64,000 nt of DNA from Dictyostelium discoideum (GCA_000004695.1 CM000155.2:768001-832000); one strand, 5' to 3'. Positions 205-57,246 are shown, numbered from the stretch's first letter. The notes: a model not told the origin generated them from the letters alone. Numbers and translations are program-made.

Positions 205-622
205 TTACATACATTGAGCTGGTGCTAATCTAACTTGTTCAACATTACAATTTCTAAAGAAATTATTACATTGATCAATAAAAACAGAACGATTTTTACC
301 TTGATCACTGCCTTTGGCTTTTCTATTTTAAGTGGCAATAATATGTGTGTGATTATTGGTTGTTAATATGGTGATGATAGTTGTATATTTTTATATTTGT
401 ATATTTTATGATTTAATGATAGTTTGATTAGAATATTAATAATAATAAAAATAAAAATACAAACAATACTAAAAGTTGACCTAATGAATGATTTCTGACA
501 TCAAGGGCGCCTAAAATATTATCTAATGAGACATGTTGTCTTTCGAGTTGTTCTTCATATTTTAATAAATTTTTTAAATTTTTTGGGTTTGGGTTTTGTG
601 CATCTAATACAAATGAATCCAT
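205..622 (-). CDS. Small (~82 aa) coiled-coil protein, uncharacterised. Tentative 2-exon model: join(481..622,205..311) on the minus strand.
   Basis: ORF 428..622 opens MDSFVLDAQNPNPKNLKNLLKYEEQLERQHVSLDNILGALDVRNHS. A GTCAAC donor at 475-480 (phase 1) pairs with an AG acceptor at 312-313. The continuation ...GSDQGKNRSVFIDQCNNFFRNCNVEQVRLAPAQCM* stops at 205-207. I recognise no family; the splice is inferred. Confidence 0.25.
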
Positions 623-9728: not shown

Positions 9729-11364
9729 TTATTCACCAAATACCAATTTTGAAATTTTTTGGCTGGAATCAATTCTTTCGTAATTTCCATAATTTTTGGA
9801 AGCCGATAAAGGATAACTTTTTCTCTTTTTTGATTGTTTTGTTGGTGTTTCAACAATTGGTTCAATGATTACACTAATTTCTATATCTTCAAGTTTGATT
9901 TCACCATTTTCAGATTCTCTCTGTTTATATTCTGGACTGCAATTATATTTTGAAGGAGTATAATTACTATTATTCTTGTTATTACTTATATTTATAAAAT
10001 TGTTAATATCAATACTTAATAACTTGTTTGGTGTTATATTTTTTAATGGCGTTTGAGTTTGCTGCTGTTGTTGTGGTGATAATCTTAGTCTATGTGGTGT
10101 TTGTCTTAGTAATGGTAATTGAGGTGTCTTTTGGATTGGTGATTGGTTTGGTGTTTTTGGTTGTGTTTGTTTTGGTGTCTTTTGGATTGGTGATTGATTT
10201 GGTGTTTTTGGTTGTTGTTCTTTTGGTGTTTGTTTTGGTGTCTTTTGAATTGGTGATTGGATTGGTGTTTTTGGTTGTTGTTGTTGTTCTTCTTCTGGTG
10301 TTTGTTTTGGTGTCTTTTGAGTTGGTGATTGATTTGGTGTTTTTGGTTGTTGTTCTTCTGGTGTTTGTTTTGGTGTCTTTTGAATTGGTGATTGATTTGG
10401 TGTTTTTGGTTGTTGTTCTGGTGTTTGTTTTGGTGTCTTTTGGATTGGTGATTGAATTGATGTTTTTGGTGGTTGTTGTTGTTGTTGTTCTGGTGTTTGT
10501 TTTGGTGCCTTTTGAATTGGTGATTGAATTGGTGTTTTTGGTTGTTGTTCAAGTGTTTTTGGTTGTTCAGATATTTGTGGTTGAGGTTGTTTTGGTGTTT
10601 GTGGTTGTTGATGATTTGAAAGAGGTAAAATAATTGGTGATAGGGATTGGTTTAATTTTGGTAGTTTTAAAGGTTGCGATAGTGATTGTTGTTTTTGTTG
10701 TTGCTGTTTTTTAATCTTTTGTTTTTTTGGAGTATTATAGATTTCTTTTTCTTGATCACTAAATTCATCGTCATCATCGTCATCATCATTACAGTCGTAA
10801 ACACTAAAATCATATTTACGAGAAGGTTTTGGAGAGATTAATGGTGTTTGACTTGTTCTGAAGCCACCAGATTTCTTTATTGAAGAGTTTACTTTTAATG
10901 GTGAGAAAGCGAATTGTTGATTTAATGAAGTTGGTGATTGAGTTTGTGTTGTAGTTGTTGTTGTTGTTGTTGTTATTTTACTTGAGAATCTATTATAAAT
11001 ATTTAAATGTGAAGGTGATGAATGTACCTTTGAAATTGTTCTTTTAGTTGGTGATCTTGAGAATGGATCTTTAATTAATGGTAATTTAATACCACTACCA
11101 CTACCACCATCACCACCACCACCACCAATAAAATCATTTTCATCAAATAAATTTAATAATGGTGATTTAAATAATGGTGTTGCAGAGTTATTACCACTAC
11201 TACTATTTGTAGAAGACAATAGAGGTCTTTTAATTGGTGTTTTAAATACTTGATTATCATCAATATCATCATTGCTTATATTACTAAGATTTAATGATGA
11301 TGAAGATGATGTTTCACTATCAAAACTTGTATTTAAACTTGTATTGGTACTGTTGTTGTTATTT

Positions 11365-11412
<48 letters not shown>

Positions 11413-11520
11413 GTCAATATGACCTTAATGATTTGATCAACTGGCCAAACCTTATTATTTAATTTTAATGATTTATTGGTATCATTTTTATTATTATTAT
11501 TATCTATATCTTTTTCATTA

Positions 11521-11603
<83 letters not shown>

Positions 11604-12234
11604 GTTATTATTAATTAATTGAATAGTCATAAAATTTTGAATTATATTAATTTTACAAGTTGAAGTAGTATTTGAGGAAGCAAATTGATTTAATGCAATT
11701 TGTGTACATTTTGTATTTGATAAATAAATGGTTGATAAAGAAGGGAATTGAAGAAATATTGGTAATGATTGATTTGAAATAAAAGAATTTGATAGATTAA
11801 TTATTGATAAACTTTGAAATGGTTGAATTGAAATTGAACCACCATGATTGTAATTGTTTAATTGATTTTGAAATTGTGTACAAATGGAATGATCTGTGAA
11901 TGGAACGTTTCTAGCTACCAATTCTTTTAGTCTACTTAGTACCATTAGATATTTAAATGCTTGGTCATTTAAATTCAAATTATTCGATATATCCAATTGT
12001 TCAAGTCTTGTCATAAAACCAATATACTTTAATGATCTATTGGTAATTCTACAACAATTTGATATATCCAATTCTGTTAACTTTGGTAACCCTTTTAAAT
12101 ATTTTATACCTTTATCTTCTAATTTATTTGAATTTGATAAATTTAAAAATCTAATTGTTTTAATTCCTTTTAAAAATAAAAATAAAAATAAAAATAAAAA
12201 TAAAATATATTAATATATAAAGTAAAAGTGAATG

Positions 12235-12324
<90 letters not shown>

Positions 12325-12773
12325 TTAGGTATAAACTTACTTGAAATGTTTAAACAATGATTATTTGAAACAAAATTTGATTTTAAATCTAAAAATGTTA
12401 TAAAATGAAGAGGTATTGATAATGAAAGTTGATAAAGTATATCAACACTTAATTTATTTCTTTCAATTAATGCTTTAATTAATGTGTTATAAAATTTAAT
12501 TTTATTATTATTATTATTTTTATTATTTTTATTTTTAGTTATTGTAGAGATTTCATATAATTTTGAAAGTGGTGCATCTTCACTTCTATTAATACTTTCA
12601 AAACTATTGTCATTATAATATTCTTCATCATCATCATCTTCACCATTTTCATTATCATTTAAATTATTATTATTATTATTATTATAATCTGTGATATTTT
12701 CTAAAAAATATTCATCATTAGTTTTTACAAATGAATTGATTCTATCTAAACAGAGATTAAATAATGAATTCAT
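9729..12773 (-). CDS. Leucine-rich-repeat (F-box/LRR-like) protein with poly-Asn, Ser-rich and C-terminal Pro/Gln-rich tandem-repeat regions, ~960 aa. Two exons: join(12331..12773,9729..12166) on the minus strand.
   Basis: Exon 1 (MNSLFNLCLDRINSFV...LDLKSNFVSNNHCLNIS) ends in phase 1 at a GTAAGT donor. The intron 12167..12330 holds the (TA)n tract. The acceptor ...AAAAG joins in frame to RIKTIRFLNLSNSNKLEDKGIKYLKGLPKLTELDISNCCRITNRSLKYIGFMTRLEQLDISNN, which reads as LRR units. The C-terminal half has about eight 21-aa repeats, TPKQTPEEQQPKTPNQSPIQK. Confidence 0.6.
10100..10560 (-). repeat. 63-nt (21-codon) coding tandem repeat, ~8 copies, inside the LRR-protein CDS.
   Basis: The translated minus strand gives ...QQPKTPIQSPIQKTPKQTPEQ / QPKTPNQSPIQKTPKQTPEEQ... 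The plus strand shows the matching periodic ggtgtttttggttgtt... pattern. The antisense ORFs 10028..10633(+) and 10106..10552(-) are artefacts of this repeat. Confidence 0.85.
12239..12309. repeat. (TA)n dinucleotide repeat, ~35 units, inside the intron of the LRR-protein gene.
   Basis: Direct reading; the tract lies within the proposed intron 12167..12330. Confidence 0.95.
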
Positions 12774-12897
12774 TATTGCTTTATGAACTTTTTTTTTAAT
12801 TAAAATTAAAATAAAAAAATAAAAAAAAAAAATTATTTTTATTTTTTTGTGAAAAAATAAGAAAAAAGAAAAAAAAAAAAAAAAAAAAAGAAAAAAA

Positions 12898-12952
12898 GTG
12901 GCGCCAATTAAAAAAGTTGTTTATAATAATTTTAAAATATTTGGCGCCAAAG
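12898..12952. promoter_or_regulatory. Pair of E2F-type GC-core motifs (GTGGCGCCAATT and the palindromic TTTGGCGCCAAA) 125-180 bp upstream of the LRR-protein gene start.
   Basis: TTTGGCGCCAAA at 12940-12951 is a perfect palindromic TTTSGCGCSAAA E2F consensus. GGCGCCAA recurs at 12900-12907. These GC hexamers are very rare in this ~78% AT window. Confidence 0.45.
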
Positions 12953-13061: not shown

Positions 13062-15638
13062 TTATTTAATAAAATCAATTAAAAAATTAATTTTAAATTC
13101 TTTTAATAAAAATGAATTATTATAAACAACATTATTTTTAATATAAACATTATTTGGAATTGTAAAACCATTTTTAATTGCATTACAAATTAAATCTTTA
13201 AATTGATTTAACATAAAATCAACGATTTCCAAATTTGTATTATCAATAGCTATAACAAATAATTGGAATAATTCTTTTTCACAATCAGTATAAACCCAAA
13301 TGAAATTTTTAGTTAAATATTTTAAAATTTCTAAATTTCCATTATAAACTGAAACTAAAAAGAATTTTCTAATCTCTGATATAATACCTTGAGAGATTGA
13401 AGTCATTCTCGAACCTGGTATAAACAAGTGTGATAATAAATGTGAAACAATTTCAATTTCACCTCTTTTAATAATATAATCTAGTAAGGAATAAACCACT
13501 AAATTTAATCCATGTTTTTTAATTAATTGATCAATTATTAATTTCTTATTCAAAATATATTCAACAACATTGCAATCACCATTACCATATTGATAAATAC
13601 AAATTAAGACATCAACAATCTCGGATTTATATCTATTATTATTAATATAATCAGGTCTATTATTTAATAAATAATGAATTTGTTTCAATTGATTTATTTT
13701 TAAAATATTTGATGGTGTGGAATATGAAAATTTAAAAGAATTTCTTGAATTTTTATGAGTATTTTCAACCAACCATATGAAATCATCAATTGATAAATCC
13801 ACTGGTAAATTATTCCAAATGTCTTGTATTATCGTATCGGTTTGTCTATCGGTATGATAATCTGTGAAATCATTCCAATTTGAAAAAATGAATTTTGAAG
13901 AATTTAATAATTTCACGGTATCAATACCATAGATAATAAAAGATAAATTAACCAATGATGTACTAATACACATTTGATATTCCTTTGGATAACTATTTTT
14001 AAAATGAAATGCTAAATGTGGTTGATATTTTAAAAATTTATGAAACAATTGTTGAATTTGTAAATCCACTGTAATGATTTCATTTTTATCATTTATCCTT
14101 TGTTTTATTGGGAATTTCTTAAACAATAAATCAAATACTTTTGGTGACTGGATTTTAATTGAAATTTTATTAACATCAAATACATTGAAAAATTTATATA
14201 GGTTACCACAACTACCTTTACCAATTAATAAATCAACAACTAATTGTAAATAATTGAAATTATCAATATTTATACAATAAAGTATAGTTTGAGTATTTAT
14301 TAAATATTTTTGATATTTATCAGTTATTTCATTTTTTGAATATTCACAAACTGCTTTCAAGAAATCTAATTGTTTTTCTTCTTCTTGTGGACAATATTCA
14401 AATATTTTAAATTGGACATTCTTTGAACATTTATGATTGAAACATGATACTTCACCATTTTTTAATATTAAATCTTCCTTTTTAAAAATACCAAATCTAT
14501 AAGATTTAAATAATAATGGTGATAAATTTGGTGAAATAAAAGATAGTCCTGTTGATGACAAGGATTGATGATGAAAGTATTTAGATTTATAAAATAAAAA
14601 ACTTTCAAACATACATTTTTCACCTTTTTTTCTATTAAAAATAATTAACATATTATATAATTTTCTAATCATATCATTTGATGATGGGAATTTATAAATT
14701 TCTAATTTTAAATTATTTTCATCATCATCATTAAAACAAAGTTTACATTTAATTTCATCCAATTCTTCAACTGATAATAATATATATTTTTCATTTAATA
14801 ATTGTTCAACCATAATTGAATTTTCACCTTTTAATTCATTTCTAATTAATGTTACATTTTCAATATTTGTTTGAAAATCATTAATATATTCTTGAATATA
14901 TGATTTTAAATAAATTATTGAATAACAACAATCCAATATTAATTTTAAAGGTTGTCTATAAATTTGAAAACTAAATAATCTACCACATGATAATAAAAGT
15001 GGATTGTTTTGTTGAATTTTTAATTTATTAATAAAGAAATCCAATGATTTACTTAAATCTTCATCTAACGGATTTAAAATTATTTTTGTAAATAAATTAC
15101 TAAGTTTATATGACCGGATTTCATTCTCTTTTAATGATAATAAATAAGCTGCAACTTGATATGACCCAATTTCAATTGAACTTTCAATTATACTATAATT
15201 AAATTGATGATTATACTCTTCAACCAATACTTGTATCAATGCAACATTATCAAATTCAATTGCAATCTTTTCCAAAAATGATGAATTCTTTTCAGTTGGT
15301 TTAAAATAATTTGGATAATTTAATAATAATTTTGAATAAAATATTTTATCATTTTTAAAATAATCAAATAAACATTTTTTTTTAATTTCTTTTAAAATTG
15401 ATCCTTTAAATACTAAATAACTACCTTCAATCACTTTCCACCATAAAAGGTATTGATAATTAAAATTTAATAACCATTCAACTTCAATAATTTGATTATA
15501 TTGAAAAACTCCAAATTTCATTGGTTCAATTATTTTAATATTTTTAAATATTAAATTTCTAATAAAACAATTTCTAAAAATAGACCAAAAATTATTTTCA
15601 TTTTCTCCATTATCTTTATAATTTTTTTTATTATTCAT
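13062..15638 (-). CDS. Hypothetical Asn/Ile/Lys-rich protein, 858 aa, single exon; no domain recognised.
   Basis: Long uninterrupted ORF with amoeba-typical composition and no internal low-complexity frame artefacts. The N-terminal motif FWSIFRNCFIRNLIFKNI may be an F-box-like or lineage-specific N-box. I cannot assign a family by eye. Confidence 0.5.
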   Translation of the reverse strand: MNNKKNYKDNGENENNFWSIFRNCFIRNLIFKNIKIIEPMKFGVFQYNQIIEVEWLLNFNYQYLLWWKVIEGSYLVFKGSILKEIKKKCLFDYFKNDKIFYSKLLLNYPNYFKPTEKNSSFLEKIAIEFDNVALIQVLVEEYNHQFNYSIIESSIEIGSYQVAAYLLSLKENEIRSYKLSNLFTKIILNPLDEDLSKSLDFFINKLKIQQNNPLLLSCGRLFSFQIYRQPLKLILDCCYSIIYLKSYIQEYINDFQTNIENVTLIRNELKGENSIMVEQLLNEKYILLSVEELDEIKCKLCFNDDDENNLKLEIYKFPSSNDMIRKLYNMLIIFNRKKGEKCMFESFLFYKSKYFHHQSLSSTGLSFISPNLSPLLFKSYRFGIFKKEDLILKNGEVSCFNHKCSKNVQFKIFEYCPQEEEKQLDFLKAVCEYSKNEITDKYQKYLINTQTILYCINIDNFNYLQLVVDLLIGKGSCGNLYKFFNVFDVNKISIKIQSPKVFDLLFKKFPIKQRINDKNEIITVDLQIQQLFHKFLKYQPHLAFHFKNSYPKEYQMCISTSLVNLSFIIYGIDTVKLLNSSKFIFSNWNDFTDYHTDRQTDTIIQDIWNNLPVDLSIDDFIWLVENTHKNSRNSFKFSYSTPSNILKINQLKQIHYLLNNRPDYINNNRYKSEIVDVLICIYQYGNGDCNVVEYILNKKLIIDQLIKKHGLNLVVYSLLDYIIKRGEIEIVSHLLSHLFIPGSRMTSISQGIISEIRKFFLVSVYNGNLEILKYLTKNFIWVYTDCEKELFQLFVIAIDNTNLEIVDFMLNQFKDLICNAIKNGFTIPNNVYIKNNVVYNNSFLLKEFKINFLIDFIK

Positions 15639-51063: not shown

Positions 51064-51261
51064 CTCTTTTTTTTTTTTTTATTTATTAATTTATTTATTT
51101 ATTAATTTATTTATTTATTTATTTATTTATTTGTTTATATATATATAAAAAAAAAAAAAAACGAGGGTGGATGAAGATGATAAAAAAAAAAAAAAAAAAA
51201 TAAAAAAAAATTTTGAATTTATAAAAAAAAAAATTTCATTTGTAAAATTTTTTTCTGTGGG

Positions 51262-51274
51262 ATTGGCGCCAAAT
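51262..51274. promoter_or_regulatory. E2F-type motif ATTGGCGCCAAAT ~200 bp upstream of the exportin-2 (cse1) start, next to a TATAAATA element.
   Basis: It has the same GGCGCCAA core as at 12900/12943. The TATA-like ctataaataaaaat follows at 51276-51289. Confidence 0.4.
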
Positions 51275-55915: not shown

Positions 55916-57224
55916 GAAAGGTTTATTACTAACCTATTTATTTAATATAAAATTTATAATAAAAAAAAAAAATTTAAAATAAAAAAAAAAAAAATAAAAA
56001 AAAAAATTTGCAAATTAAAAATAAATTAAAATTTTTGATTGGTAAATTATGTTTATTTTTATATTTTTTCTAATTTTTTTTCTAATTTTTTTTTAATTTC
56101 CTGGAAGTGAATCTCAAATATGTGGTGGTACTTTTTTTTTTTTTTATTTATGAGAAAAAAACATTTAAGTACATACACAATATCTTTTTGGATATTTTTT
56201 AAAAGTTAATTAAAAAAAAAAGAAGGAAATAGGGAAAAAAAAAAAATAATAAATGTTTTATAGCTATTTCTTTTTTATTTGTTTTAAATTTTTATTTATT
56301 TTTATTTATTTATTTTTGTTTTTGTTTTTGTTTTTGTTTTTGTTTTTGTTTTTGTTTTTGTTTTTGTTTTTGTTTTTGATAAAAAAAAAAAAAAAAAATC
56401 TTTTTGGGTTATTGTAATGAAATTTAAAAATAAAAACCCCTTTTATTGCGATTATTTAATAATAATAAAAAAAAAAAAAAAAAAAAATTAAATTATTGAA
56501 CAATTGTTGAATTGTTTTTTTTTTTGTTTTTTTTTTTTTTAAAAAATAATTAAAAAAAAAAAAGAAAAAAAAAAAAAAAAAAAAAAAAAACACTGTTTAA
56601 TCTGGTGGCCAAAAGAAAATATAACTAAAAAAAAAAAAAAAAAGGCGGGAACTTGTGAATTGAGGAGTGATGGTGATATGATATGATATGATATGTCATG
56701 ATTTTATTTTTTGGATTGGGTGTATGTAGTTTTTGAATTTTAATTTTATTATCTTTTTTTTTATTTTTTTTTTTTTTTTTGTGTTTGCATATATGAAACT
56801 ATTATTTTTTATTATTTTACTTATTATTAATTTATTATCATTATTTTTTTTTTATTTTTTTTTTTTTTTTATTATTTTATTTATTATTAAAGAAAAAGAA
56901 AAAATAATAATAATAATAATAAAAAAAAAAAGATTTATTTATTTTTACTTTACCTAAAATGTTTAAATTATTTTTAACTTGATAGTGAATGTGTGTGTGT
57001 ATGTGTGTATGTGTGTATGAGATTAATTAAAATGAAATTTTATTGAATATATATATAAAATAAAGTAATAAAGTTGTGAATATTTATTTGATTTTTGTAA
57101 CCGTTATAATTGTTGTTGAAAAAATAAAATTAAAAAAAAAAAAAAAAAAAAAAATAAAAAAAATGTGGAAGGATTTTTTTTTTGAATTTGAAAATAAAAT
57201 ATTTTTTTAATTTTTTTAACAGCT

Positions 57225-57246
57225 TTTGGCGGGAATTTTCGCGAAT
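57225..57246. promoter_or_regulatory. Tandem E2F-type motifs TTTTGGCGGGAA + TTTTCGCGAA in the intergenic region between the Myt1-like kinase gene and wdr92 (~700 bp upstream of wdr92).
   Basis: TTTGGCGGGAA is the classical E2F site sequence and TTTCGCG is the E2F half-site core. A further GGCGGGAAC lies at 56642-56650. Confidence 0.4.

What the first reader, a model, noticed from the sequence alone, without database searches (positions are those of the whole stretch)
12898..12952. Perfect palindromic E2F site TTTGGCGCCAAA plus a second GGCGCCAA 40 bp away
The window is ~78% AT, so GC hexamers are very rare. TTTGGCGCCAAA is the textbook palindromic E2F element (TTTSGCGCSAAA). Dictyostelium encodes E2F/DP and the Rb orthologue RblA, and TTTSSCGC-type motifs are reported as enriched in RblA-repressed cell-cycle gene promoters. 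The motif here sits 125-180 bp upstream of the LRR/F-box-like gene. That gene's product carries ~16 S/T-P sites in its tandem repeat, which fits a cell-cycle-regulated substrate or adaptor.
Basis: partly seen in the sequence, partly recalled or inferred. Interest (0 to 1): 0.55.

Follow-up and report, generated by a model that had tools for sequence, protein, structure and literature searches.

The report
Conserved paired E2F sites in promoter
Two textbook E2F transcription-factor binding sites sit just upstream of an orphan Dictyostelium gene that published data list as strongly repressed by the retinoblastoma protein RblA, and five related genomes keep them, so this is very probably a real but ordinary cell-cycle promoter element.

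Summary
TTTGGCGCCAAA lies at 12940-12951 and GTGGCGCCAA at 12898-12907, at -167/-178 and -126/-134 from the ATG (12773, minus strand) of a 956-aa LRR gene. GGCGCC occurs 4 times in the window against 0.15 expected.

Six Dictyostelium genomes (two D. discoideum strains, D. cf. discoideum, D. citrinum, D. firmibasis, D. dimigraforme) all carry two such sites 37-45 bp apart in the orthologous promoter. The variants stay within the E2F consensus: TTTCCCGCCAAA and TTTTGGCGCAAA. Substrings of TGGCGCCAAA are the only G/C-containing k-mers that all six promoters share. The D. purpureum orthologue has no consensus site.

The window is D. discoideum AX4. By elimination (about 90% sure) the gene is DDB_G0291806. 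Strasser et al. 2012 list it as repressed by RblA 7.5-fold in growth and 24.7-fold in development, with peak expression in late G2.

The other intergenic E2F-like sites in the window lie 5' of the other three RblA-repressed genes there (xpo2, a wee1-like kinase, wdr92). They are conserved too.

Verdict: a genuine E2F/DP-RblA promoter module, a new member of a known kind. E2F binding itself is untested. No F-box was found. I could not find a published report of TTTSSCGC enrichment.

The parts
12940..12951 (.). Distal E2F-type site. It is the perfect palindrome TTTGGCGCCAAA, at -167 to -178 from the ATG of the minus-strand gene.
   Evidence: It matches TTTSSCGC on both strands. It is present in all six D. 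discoideum-group promoters, and D. citrinum has TTTCCCGCCAAA instead.
12898..12909 (.). Proximal E2F-type site. It reads AATTGGCGCCAC on the gene strand (GTGGCGCCAATT on the + strand), at -125 to -136 from the ATG, and it abuts the oligo-dT tract.
   Evidence: The orthologous site is ATTGGCGCCAT in D. cf. discoideum, TTTTGGCGCCAAAC in D. citrinum, TTTTGGCGCAAAC in D. firmibasis and CTTGGCGCCAAT in D. dimigraforme.
12852..12897 (-). A 46-nt T-rich tract on the gene strand, directly downstream of the proximal site and followed by CACAAAAAA. The start of transcription is inferred to lie near its end.
   Evidence: All six orthologous promoters have a T-run after the proximal site. The transcription start is inferred from general knowledge of Dictyostelium promoters and was not measured.
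12341..12773 (-). Exon 1 of the target gene (inferred to be DDB_G0291806). The ATG is at 12773.
   Evidence: My gene model is. It gives the same 956-aa product as the called gene in assembly GCA_054883475.1.
12167..12340 (-). Intron, with GTAAGT at the donor and AG at the acceptor. It contains a (TA)n run.
9729..12166 (-). Exon 2. It encodes the cysteine-containing LRR domain, low-complexity N/T runs, the S/T-P-rich region with the tandem repeat, and a conserved C-terminal block.
51262..51273 (.). A companion example in the same window. ATTGGCGCCAAA lies 199 bp upstream of the ATG (51063) of xpo2/Cse1 (DDB_G0291838).
   Evidence: Pfam finds Cse1, CAS_CSE1 and IBN_N domains. Table S2 gives RblA repression of 2.4-fold and 11.1-fold. 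TTTGGCGCC is conserved at -151 to -226 in four genomes.
56644..56651 (.). A companion example. GGCGGGAA (TTCCCGCC on the minus strand) lies in the 2.3-kb divergent region between the wee1-like kinase DDB_G0291842 and wdr92.
   Evidence: TTCCCGCC is conserved in four genomes, 870-990 bp upstream of the kinase ATG.
57224..57245 (.). A companion example. The composite TTTTGGCGGGAATTTTCGCGAA lies about 700 bp upstream of the wdr92 ATG (57936).
   Evidence: The core CCGCCAAAA.CTGTT is conserved in four genomes. wdr92 is identified, and the kinase.

Best explanation
The two GGCGCC-centred elements form the proximal promoter module of the minus-strand gene at 9729-12773. This gene is inferred to be DDB_G0291806. 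It is an orphan protein of the D. discoideum/D. purpureum lineage with FBXL-type leucine-rich repeats and many S/T-P sites.

Proposed mechanism:
- Each element is a binding site for the single Dictyostelium E2F/DP heterodimer.
- When RblA is bound to E2F, the promoter is repressed.
- When RblA is inactivated in late G2, or is absent in rblA-null cells, E2F/DP activates the promoter. This gives the published late-G2 peak and the 7.5-fold and 24.7-fold derepression.

What is shown: the motif, its statistical excess, its position, its conservation with consensus-preserving substitutions, and the fact that such sites in this window occur only 5' of RblA-repressed genes.

What comes from the literature: the RblA dependence and periodic expression of DDB_G0291806, and the presence of E2F, DP and RblA in the genome.

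What is inferred: that E2F/DP is the protein that binds here, that the RblA effect is direct, that the gene is DDB_G0291806, and where transcription starts.
For: 1. Sequence and statistics. TTTGGCGCCAAA and GGCGCCAA are at the stated places. GGCGCC occurs 4 times against 0.15 expected, and TTSSCGC 8 times against 1.45. At non-coding composition, 0.04 GGCGCC hits are expected.

2. Consensus match. The E2F family consensus is GCGSSAAA, with G required before the CG (PMC4862756). The human E2F1 motif is ATTGGCGCCAAA, with TTTGGCGCCAAA as the predicted form (PMC5449588).

3. Phylogenetic footprint.
- All six D. discoideum-group genomes have two sites 37-45 bp apart, at -79 to -170 from the ATG.
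- The only k-mers with two or more G/C shared by all six 300-bp promoters are substrings of TGGCGCCAAA.
- Control promoters share no such k-mer.
- D. citrinum changes GG to CC (TTTCCCGCCAAA). D. firmibasis loses one half-site (TTTTGGCGCAAA). Both changes break the palindrome but keep TTTSSCGC.

4. The sites follow the LRR gene. In D. firmibasis and D. dimigraforme the upstream neighbour is an unrelated gene.

5. Expression. In Table S2 of PMC3386910, DDB_G0291806 is repressed by RblA 7.52-fold in growth and 24.67-fold in development. It is marked 'max late G2', with a read peak 1 h after cold release.

6. Specificity inside the window.
- Intergenic TTSSCGC hits fall in 3 of about 16 5' regions.
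- These are exactly the regions that serve the four Table S2 genes of the window: DDB_G0291806, xpo2, DDB_G0291842 and wdr92.
- My own hand calculations: 1/C(16,3) = 0.002 by region, and a hypergeometric P of about 7e-4 by gene.
- Those sites are conserved as well.

7. Strasser et al. state that Dictyostelium has E2F (DDB_G0284129), DP (DDB_G0276799) and RblA.
Against: - No binding or mutagenesis data exist. The assignment to E2F rests on motif identity.
- The link between the LRR gene and DDB_G0291806 is by elimination, not by direct look-up. The EAL-to-DDB numbering is linear at four verified points. 'No significant homology' excludes the DEAD helicase and the SQS_PSY gene. No other real ORF lies between TGT and DDB_G0291808. 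The protein itself could not be retrieved by name.
- The D. purpureum orthologue has no TTSSCGC or GGCGCC in its 463-bp promoter. It has only TTTCCCTCCAA at about -108, and the central CG is lost. Conservation therefore does not extend beyond the D. discoideum group.
- The proximal AX4 site matches TTTSSCGC at only 7 of 8 positions.
- Table S2 was cut when stored, so the list of RblA-repressed genes in the window may be incomplete.
- The RhoGAP gene shares the xpo2 intergenic region but is not listed as RblA-repressed.
Confidence: 0.8

Rival explanations
1. The conserved element is bound by a factor other than E2F/DP. Candidates are a CCAAT-box factor, because ATTGG/CCAAT overlaps some copies, or a factor for the undefined 'cell-cycle element' of MacWilliams and colleagues. 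The RblA dependence would then be indirect.
For: Table S2 says that CCAAT is enriched in RblA-repressed promoters and that a C/EBP-like gene is itself RblA-repressed. The AX4 proximal site (AATTGGCGCC), the xpo2 site (GATTGGCGCC) and both D. dimigraforme sites (GGCGCCAAT) contain ATTGG or CCAAT. No binding data exist for any factor.
Against: CCAAT/ATTGG is not what is conserved. The distal site lacks it in five of six genomes. The proximal site lacks it in D. citrinum and D. firmibasis. The xpo2 site loses it in D. citrinum and D. dimigraforme, while TTTGGCGCC stays. Every variant, including TTTCCCGCCAAA, TTTTGGCGCAAA and the GGCGGGAA sites of wee1/wdr92, fits the single E2F consensus.
Confidence: 0.12
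2. The element belongs to the 3' end of the upstream gene DDB_G0291808, as a termination or polyadenylation region or a 3'-UTR motif, rather than to the promoter of the LRR gene.
For: The sites lie only 110-160 bp downstream of the DDB_G0291808 stop codon at 13062.
Against: In D. firmibasis and D. dimigraforme, unrelated genes lie between the DDB_G0291808 orthologue and the LRR orthologue. The paired sites stay about 90-135 bp upstream of the LRR ATG. DDB_G0291808 is not in Table S2. The other E2F-like sites in the window lie in divergent 5' regions with no gene end nearby.
Confidence: 0.03
3. It is a chance G+C-rich palindrome with no function.
For: TTTSSCGC alone is only marginally over-represented: 3 against 0.82, with 4 of 100 shuffles reaching 3. 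The D. purpureum promoter lacks it.
Against: GGCGCC occurs 4 times against 0.15 expected, and 0.04 strand hits are expected at non-coding composition. Two sites are retained in six genomes while the flanks diverge. The sites coincide with RblA-repressed genes.
Confidence: 0.02

Closest known systems
Canonical E2F/DP binding sites of animal and plant G1/S and G2/M promoters (TTTSSCGC / GCGSSAAA; human E2F1 motif ATTGGCGCCAAA)
   Same: The core sequence is the same, down to the 12-mer. The xpo2 copy equals the quoted human E2F1 motif, and the distal copy differs at one flanking base. The sites are proximal to the promoter and often paired. The target gene is repressed by the Rb orthologue and is periodically expressed.
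   Different: The organism is an amoebozoan with no G1 phase, and targets peak in late G2 (PMC3386910). The DNA context is extremely AT-rich (14.8% G+C in non-coding DNA), so the site stands out far more than it would in animal CpG-island promoters. Binding by Dictyostelium E2F/DP has not been shown.
RblA-repressed gene set of Dictyostelium discoideum (Strasser et al. 2012, PLoS One 7:e39914)
   Same: DDB_G0291806, xpo2 (DDB_G0291838), DDB_G0291842 and wdr92 (DDB_G0291822) are all listed there. Each has conserved E2F-type sites 5' of it in this window.
   Different: The paper reports expression only. Its main text has no promoter motif analysis: 'motif' occurs 0 times, and the promoter work is cited as 'in preparation'. 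The cis-elements described here are not in that paper.
F-box/LRR (FBXL) proteins such as FBXL2 and Skp2 (for the gene product, not the DNA element)
   Same: The product has cysteine-containing LRRs of the form LxxLDISNCxxITNxSLKYI. The best match among solved structures is FBXL2, E = 1.2e-7.
   Different: Pfam detects no F-box in the AX4 protein or its orthologues. The protein has a long disordered S/T-P-rich C-terminal half. Full-length relatives were found only in Dictyostelium.

Membership tests
E2F/DP cis-element | Sequence matches TTTSSCGC / GCGSSAAA, with G before the central CG | tested here: met
   The distal site matches 8/8 on both strands and the proximal site 7/8. The consensus is quoted from PMC4862756 and PMC5449588.
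E2F/DP cis-element | Occurs more often than base composition predicts | tested here: met
   GGCGCC occurs 4 times against 0.15 expected, and TTSSCGC 8 times against 1.45. At non-coding composition, 0.04 GGCGCC hits are expected.
E2F/DP cis-element | Located in the proximal promoter of the regulated gene | tested here: met
   The sites lie at -126 to -178 from the ATG, directly upstream of the oligo-dT tract. The transcription start itself is not mapped.
E2F/DP cis-element | Conserved in orthologous promoters, with substitutions that stay inside the consensus | tested here: met
   Six D. discoideum-group genomes each have two sites. This is not met in D. purpureum, which has only TTTCCCTCCAA.
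E2F/DP cis-element | The downstream gene responds to loss of the Rb orthologue and is cell-cycle periodic | tested here: met
   The evidence is from the literature, not from a computation. DDB_G0291806 is repressed 7.52-fold and 24.67-fold and is marked 'max late G2'. The identity of the gene with DDB_G0291806 is inferred by elimination.
E2F/DP cis-element | The organism encodes E2F, DP and a pocket protein | not tested
   Stated in PMC3386910: E2F is DDB_G0284129, DP is DDB_G0276799, and the pocket protein is rblA. These genes lie outside the window and I did not examine them.
E2F/DP cis-element | Physical occupancy by E2F/DP (EMSA or ChIP) and loss of regulation when the site is mutated | not testable with these tools
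   This needs experiments.
F-box/LRR (FBXL) protein (gene product) | Cysteine-containing leucine-rich repeats | tested here: met
   Pfam LRR_4, LRR_8 and LRR_6 give weak matches. FBXL2 (6o60_C) is the best PDB match, E = 1.2e-7.
F-box/LRR (FBXL) protein (gene product) | F-box domain N-terminal to the LRRs | tested here: not met
   There is no PF00646 or other F-box hit in the AX4 N-terminus at E <= 0.1, or in the orthologues P0036 and P0147 at E <= 1. Only single-sequence HMM scans were run. No profile-profile or structural test was done.

The most novel reading that the evidence does not exclude
DDB_G0291806 is among the more strongly RblA-repressed genes quoted from Table S2 and was annotated 'no significant homology'. 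It may be a direct E2F target encoding a previously unrecognised, Dictyostelium-lineage-specific cell-cycle factor. The protein would be an FBXL-type LRR adaptor without an F-box, whose activity is set by CDK phosphorylation. The candidate sites are the four S/T-P-x-K sites conserved from D. discoideum to D. purpureum. On this reading, the conserved two-site E2F module is what ties its synthesis to late G2.
Probability: 0.3. Interest if true: 0.5.

Novelty: new member of a known kind. Interest (0 to 1): 0.3.

Why it matters
- It gives sequence-level, comparative evidence that the canonical E2F motif, identical to the human E2F1 consensus, is used in an amoebozoan. It marks direct-target candidates among the published RblA-repressed genes, for which I found no promoter analysis in print.
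- The extreme AT-richness makes these sites almost free of background noise. A genome-wide scan would therefore be an efficient way to separate direct from indirect RblA targets.
- It flags one orphan gene, DDB_G0291806, as a well-defined reporter promoter of under 200 bp and as a candidate new cell-cycle protein.
- None of this overturns current understanding.

Tried and rejected
1. I could not retrieve the LRR protein by name. The exact look-up failed. Two word-indexed homology searches returned only unrelated LRR proteins. Gene identity therefore had to be inferred from accession numbering and elimination.

2. Literature searches for DDB_G0291806 and neighbouring IDs found nothing. Searches for a published Dictyostelium E2F promoter motif found only Strasser 2012 and general E2F papers.

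3. tRNA and Rfam scans of the whole window found nothing, so the GGCGCC sites are not parts of RNA genes.

4. I tested whether the extra upstream genes in D. firmibasis and D. dimigraforme are paralogues of DDB_G0291808. That would have kept the 3'-end hypothesis alive. There was no BLAST similarity.

5. I looked for the element in the D. purpureum orthologue and found no consensus site.

6. I did not finish an exact exon model of xpo2, and the RhoGAP gene gave no model with 2-3 introns. I used the kinase and wdr92 as anchors instead.

7. I did not run a structure prediction of the N-terminal domain. No usable alignment could be submitted, and the result would not bear on the DNA element.

8. 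GGCGCC at 506-511 is rejected as a regulatory site. It lies in the first coding exon of a COP9/PCI-subunit gene and lacks the T/A flanks.

Full report
**Observation.** The window is 23.4% G+C. TTTGGCGCCAAA is at 12940-12951, and GTGGCGCCAA is at 12898-12907. The two GGCGCC cores are 43 bp apart.
- GGCGCC occurs four times in 64 kb against 0.15 expected from dinucleotide-preserving shuffles. None of 100 shuffles reaches four.
- The relaxed E2F core TTSSCGC gives 8 strand hits against 1.45 expected, and 0 of 100 shuffles reach 8.
- The strict TTTSSCGC is only marginal: 3 against 0.82.
- At the composition of the non-coding fraction (14.8% G+C, 21 kb), a first-order Markov model expects 0.04 GGCGCC strand hits.
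- No tRNA gene or Rfam family overlaps any site.

**Context.** ORF 13062-15638 (minus strand) is an exact match to DDB_G0291808 of Dictyostelium discoideum AX4. Other exact matches are DDB_G0291816, DDB_G0291824, DDB_G0291842, the queuine tRNA-ribosyltransferase, and WDR92/DNAAF10. The window is therefore from D. discoideum AX4.

The sites lie in a 288-bp intergenic region between the stop codon of DDB_G0291808 (13062) and the ATG (12773) of the next minus-strand gene. My model of that gene is exon 1 at 12773-12341, an intron at 12340-12167, and exon 2 at 12166-9729, giving 956 aa. The called 956-aa gene in another D. discoideum assembly translates to the same protein.

On the gene strand the order is:
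1. The distal palindrome, at -167 to -178.
2. The proximal AATTGGCGCCAC, at -125 to -136.
3. A 46-nt T-rich tract.
4. CACAAAAAA.
5. About 75 nt of A/T.
6. The ATG.

I infer that transcription starts just after the T-tract. This rests on general knowledge of Dictyostelium promoters and was not measured.

**Which gene is it?** The protein could not be retrieved by name, so its identity is inferred.
- GenBank EAL numbers and DDB_G numbers are linearly related at four verified points: EAL61525 is 0291808, 61529 is 0291816, 61533 is 0291824, and 61542 is 0291842. EAL61532 (wdr92) fits 0291822 as given in Table S2.
- On this rule the tRNA-ribosyltransferase (EAL61522) is 0291802. So 0291804 and 0291806 lie between it and 0291808.
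- The genes in that interval are a DEAD-box helicase, an SQS_PSY-domain gene and the LRR gene. No other credible ORF exists there.
- Table S2 of Strasser et al. 2012 describes DDB_G0291806 as having 'no significant homology'. That excludes the first two.

I put the assignment at about 90%.

**Published expression.** Table S2 (PMC3386910) gives, for DDB_G0291806:
- Fold repression by RblA of 7.52 in growth and 24.67 in development.
- p = 2.6e-6 for development.
- Maximum expression in mid development.
- 'max late G2', with reads peaking 1 h after cold release.

For comparison, cdk1 in the same table is 2.71 and 10.81.

**Comparative test.** I fetched the orthologous locus from five other genomes:
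- D. discoideum ACTFIR (L007).
- D. cf. discoideum ACTFIZ (L008).
- D. citrinum (L009).
- D. firmibasis (L005).
- D. dimigraforme (L006).

Every promoter has two E2F-type sites 37-45 bp apart, between -79 and -170 from the ATG.

| Site | Variants seen |
|---|---|
| Distal | TTTGGCGCCAAA; CTTGGCGCCAAA; TTTCCCGCCAAA (D. citrinum); TTTGGCGCCAAT |
| Proximal | ATTGGCGCCAC; ATTGGCGCCAT; TTTTGGCGCCAAAC; TTTTGGCGCAAAC (D. firmibasis); CTTGGCGCCAAT |

The D. citrinum and D. firmibasis variants destroy the palindrome but keep TTTSSCGC. This is what an E2F site predicts. A palindrome-reading or CCAAT-reading factor would not predict it.

An unbiased comparison makes the same point. Among all k-mers (k = 6-9) shared by the six 300-bp promoters, the only ones with two or more G/C are substrings of TGGCGCCAAA. 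Control promoters of DDB_G0291808 and the EF-hand/WWE gene share no such k-mer.

In D. firmibasis and D. dimigraforme, unrelated genes have come to lie upstream of the LRR gene, yet the sites stay with the LRR gene. This rules out a 3'-end function for DDB_G0291808.

**Limit of conservation.** An exhaustive HMMER search with the LRR exon found a 651-aa orthologue in D. purpureum. Its 463-bp promoter has no TTSSCGC or GGCGCC. It has only TTTCCCTCCAA before a T-run at about -108. That looks like a site that has lost its central CG.

**Internal control from the same window.** Apart from one hit inside the PARP coding region, all TTSSCGC hits are intergenic. They fall in three 5' regions.
1. The LRR promoter.
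2. 51262-51273, ATTGGCGCCAAA, 199 bp upstream of xpo2/Cse1 (Pfam domains).
3. The 2.3-kb divergent region between the Myt1/Wee1-like kinase DDB_G0291842 and wdr92. It holds GGCGGGAA at 56644-56651 and TTTTGGCGGGAATTTTCGCGAA at 57224-57245.

Searches of the stored, truncated copy of Table S2 for the window's known and inferred ID ranges (DDB_G02917xx and DDB_G02918xx) return only DDB_G0291806, xpo2 (0291838), 0291842 and wdr92 (0291822) among this window's genes. Three of about 16 5' regions carry sites, and they are the same three that serve all four RblA-repressed genes. By hand calculation this is 1/C(16,3) = 0.002.

These sites are also conserved in D. cf. discoideum, D. citrinum and D. dimigraforme:
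- TTTGGCGCC upstream of xpo2.
- TTCCCGCC and CCGCCAAAA.CTGTT in the kinase/wdr92 region.

**Match to known E2F specificity.**
- Medina et al. 2016 give GCGSSAAA as the family consensus. They also give NNSGCGSN, with an obligatory G before the CG, as the E2F-specific core.
- Zamanighomi et al. 2017 list ATTGGCGCCAAA as the human E2F1 motif and TTTGGCGCCAAA as its predicted form.
- Strasser et al. state that Dictyostelium has one activator E2F, a DP and RblA.

**What the literature does not say.** The main text of Strasser et al. contains no promoter motif analysis; the word 'motif' occurs 0 times. It mentions only three things:
- A 'consensus E2F element' in transposon Tdd-5.
- An undefined 'cell-cycle element'.
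- A CCAAT enrichment 'in preparation'.

Further searches found no published Dictyostelium E2F promoter study. The extended palindrome TTGGCGCCAAT contains CCAAT, so part of the CCAAT signal might come from E2F sites. That is speculation.

**The gene product.**
- The N-terminal third has cysteine-containing LRRs. The best solved relative is FBXL2, E = 1.2e-7.
- Pfam finds no F-box in the protein or in its orthologues. It is not an FBXL family member on present evidence.
- The protein has 43 S/T-P dipeptides: 26 in the tandem repeat at residues 641-830, plus nine full S/T-P-x-K/R sites.
- The tandem repeat varies between strains and is absent in D. purpureum.
- Four full CDK-consensus sites (T454, S516, T623, T918) and several short blocks are conserved between the two species.

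That is compatible with a CDK substrate. It proves nothing.

**Verdict.** This is a real, conserved, paired E2F-type promoter module upstream of a gene that published data show to be RblA-repressed and periodically expressed. It is a new member of a known kind. It is solid and useful as a reporter and for separating direct from indirect RblA targets, but it is not surprising. The remaining gaps are direct binding, the transcription start, and a database confirmation of the gene ID.

Noticed in passing
window 51262-51273: ATTGGCGCCAAA is identical to the human E2F1 motif quoted in PMC5449588. It lies 199 bp upstream of xpo2/Cse1 (DDB_G0291838, RblA-repressed). TTTGGCGCC is conserved in four genomes. 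The divergent RhoGAP/PH/C2 gene (ATG about 51877) shares the region but is not listed as RblA-repressed.
   Followed up: yes
window 56644-56651 and 57224-57245: There are two further E2F-type sites, GGCGGGAA and TTTTGGCGGGAATTTTCGCGAA. They lie in the unusually long (2.3 kb) divergent region between the wee1/Myt1-like kinase DDB_G0291842 and wdr92, both of which are RblA-repressed. Both cores are conserved in four genomes. They are 700-1600 bp from the ATGs, which is far by Dictyostelium standards.
   Followed up: yes
window 56946-56955 and 57099-57108: The same long intergenic region holds two other 10-mers conserved in four genomes. The first is TACTTTACCT, which reads AGGTAAAGTA on the minus strand and looks like a splice donor. 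It may mark a 5'-UTR intron of the kinase gene or an unannotated transcript. If so, the transcription start would lie near the 57224 E2F site. The second is AACCGTTATA, which resembles a Myb site.
   Followed up: partly
window 51158-51166: AAAACGAGG (CCTCGTTTT on the xpo2 strand) is conserved in all four xpo2 promoters, about 95-103 bp upstream of the ATG. Its function is unknown. It may lie near the transcription start.
   Followed up: no
window 506-511: The fourth GGCGCC of the window (GGGCGCCTAA) lies inside the first coding exon of a minus-strand COP9/PCI-subunit gene (ATG about 624). It lacks the T/A flanks, so it is not a promoter site.
   Followed up: partly
L014 3893-3903 (D. purpureum GL871037.1): The D. 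purpureum orthologue of the LRR gene has no consensus E2F site. It has TTTCCCTCCAA before a T-run at about -108, which looks like a site that lost its central CG. Whether that gene is still cell-cycle regulated is unknown.
   Followed up: partly
window 9729-12166 (protein residues 450-930): The tandem QSPIQKTPKQTPE repeat varies in copy number between strains and species and is absent in D. purpureum. Gene products range from 927 to 1009 aa in the D. discoideum group (861 aa for the orthologue representative P0036) and are 651 aa in D. purpureum. Four S/T-P-x-K sites and the blocks DPFSxSPTKR, SPSHLNIY, TPLISPK and SDQEKEIYxTPKK are conserved.
   Followed up: partly
window 9729-12773 (protein): This protein and its close orthologues were not returned by the word-indexed protein search, and the exact sequence is 'not in the collection'. 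Yet gene calls for it exist in the assemblies, and the exhaustive HMMER search found orthologues. I suspect an effect of its heavy low-complexity content.
   Followed up: no
L005 8656-12487 and L006 9180-13603: D. firmibasis and D. dimigraforme have one to three extra genes between the DDB_G0291808 orthologue and the LRR orthologue. D. discoideum and D. citrinum lack them. The three forward-strand genes tested (607, 694 and 650 aa) show no similarity to DDB_G0291808 or to the other window ORFs tested; the 172-aa reverse-strand gene in D. firmibasis was not compared.
   Followed up: partly
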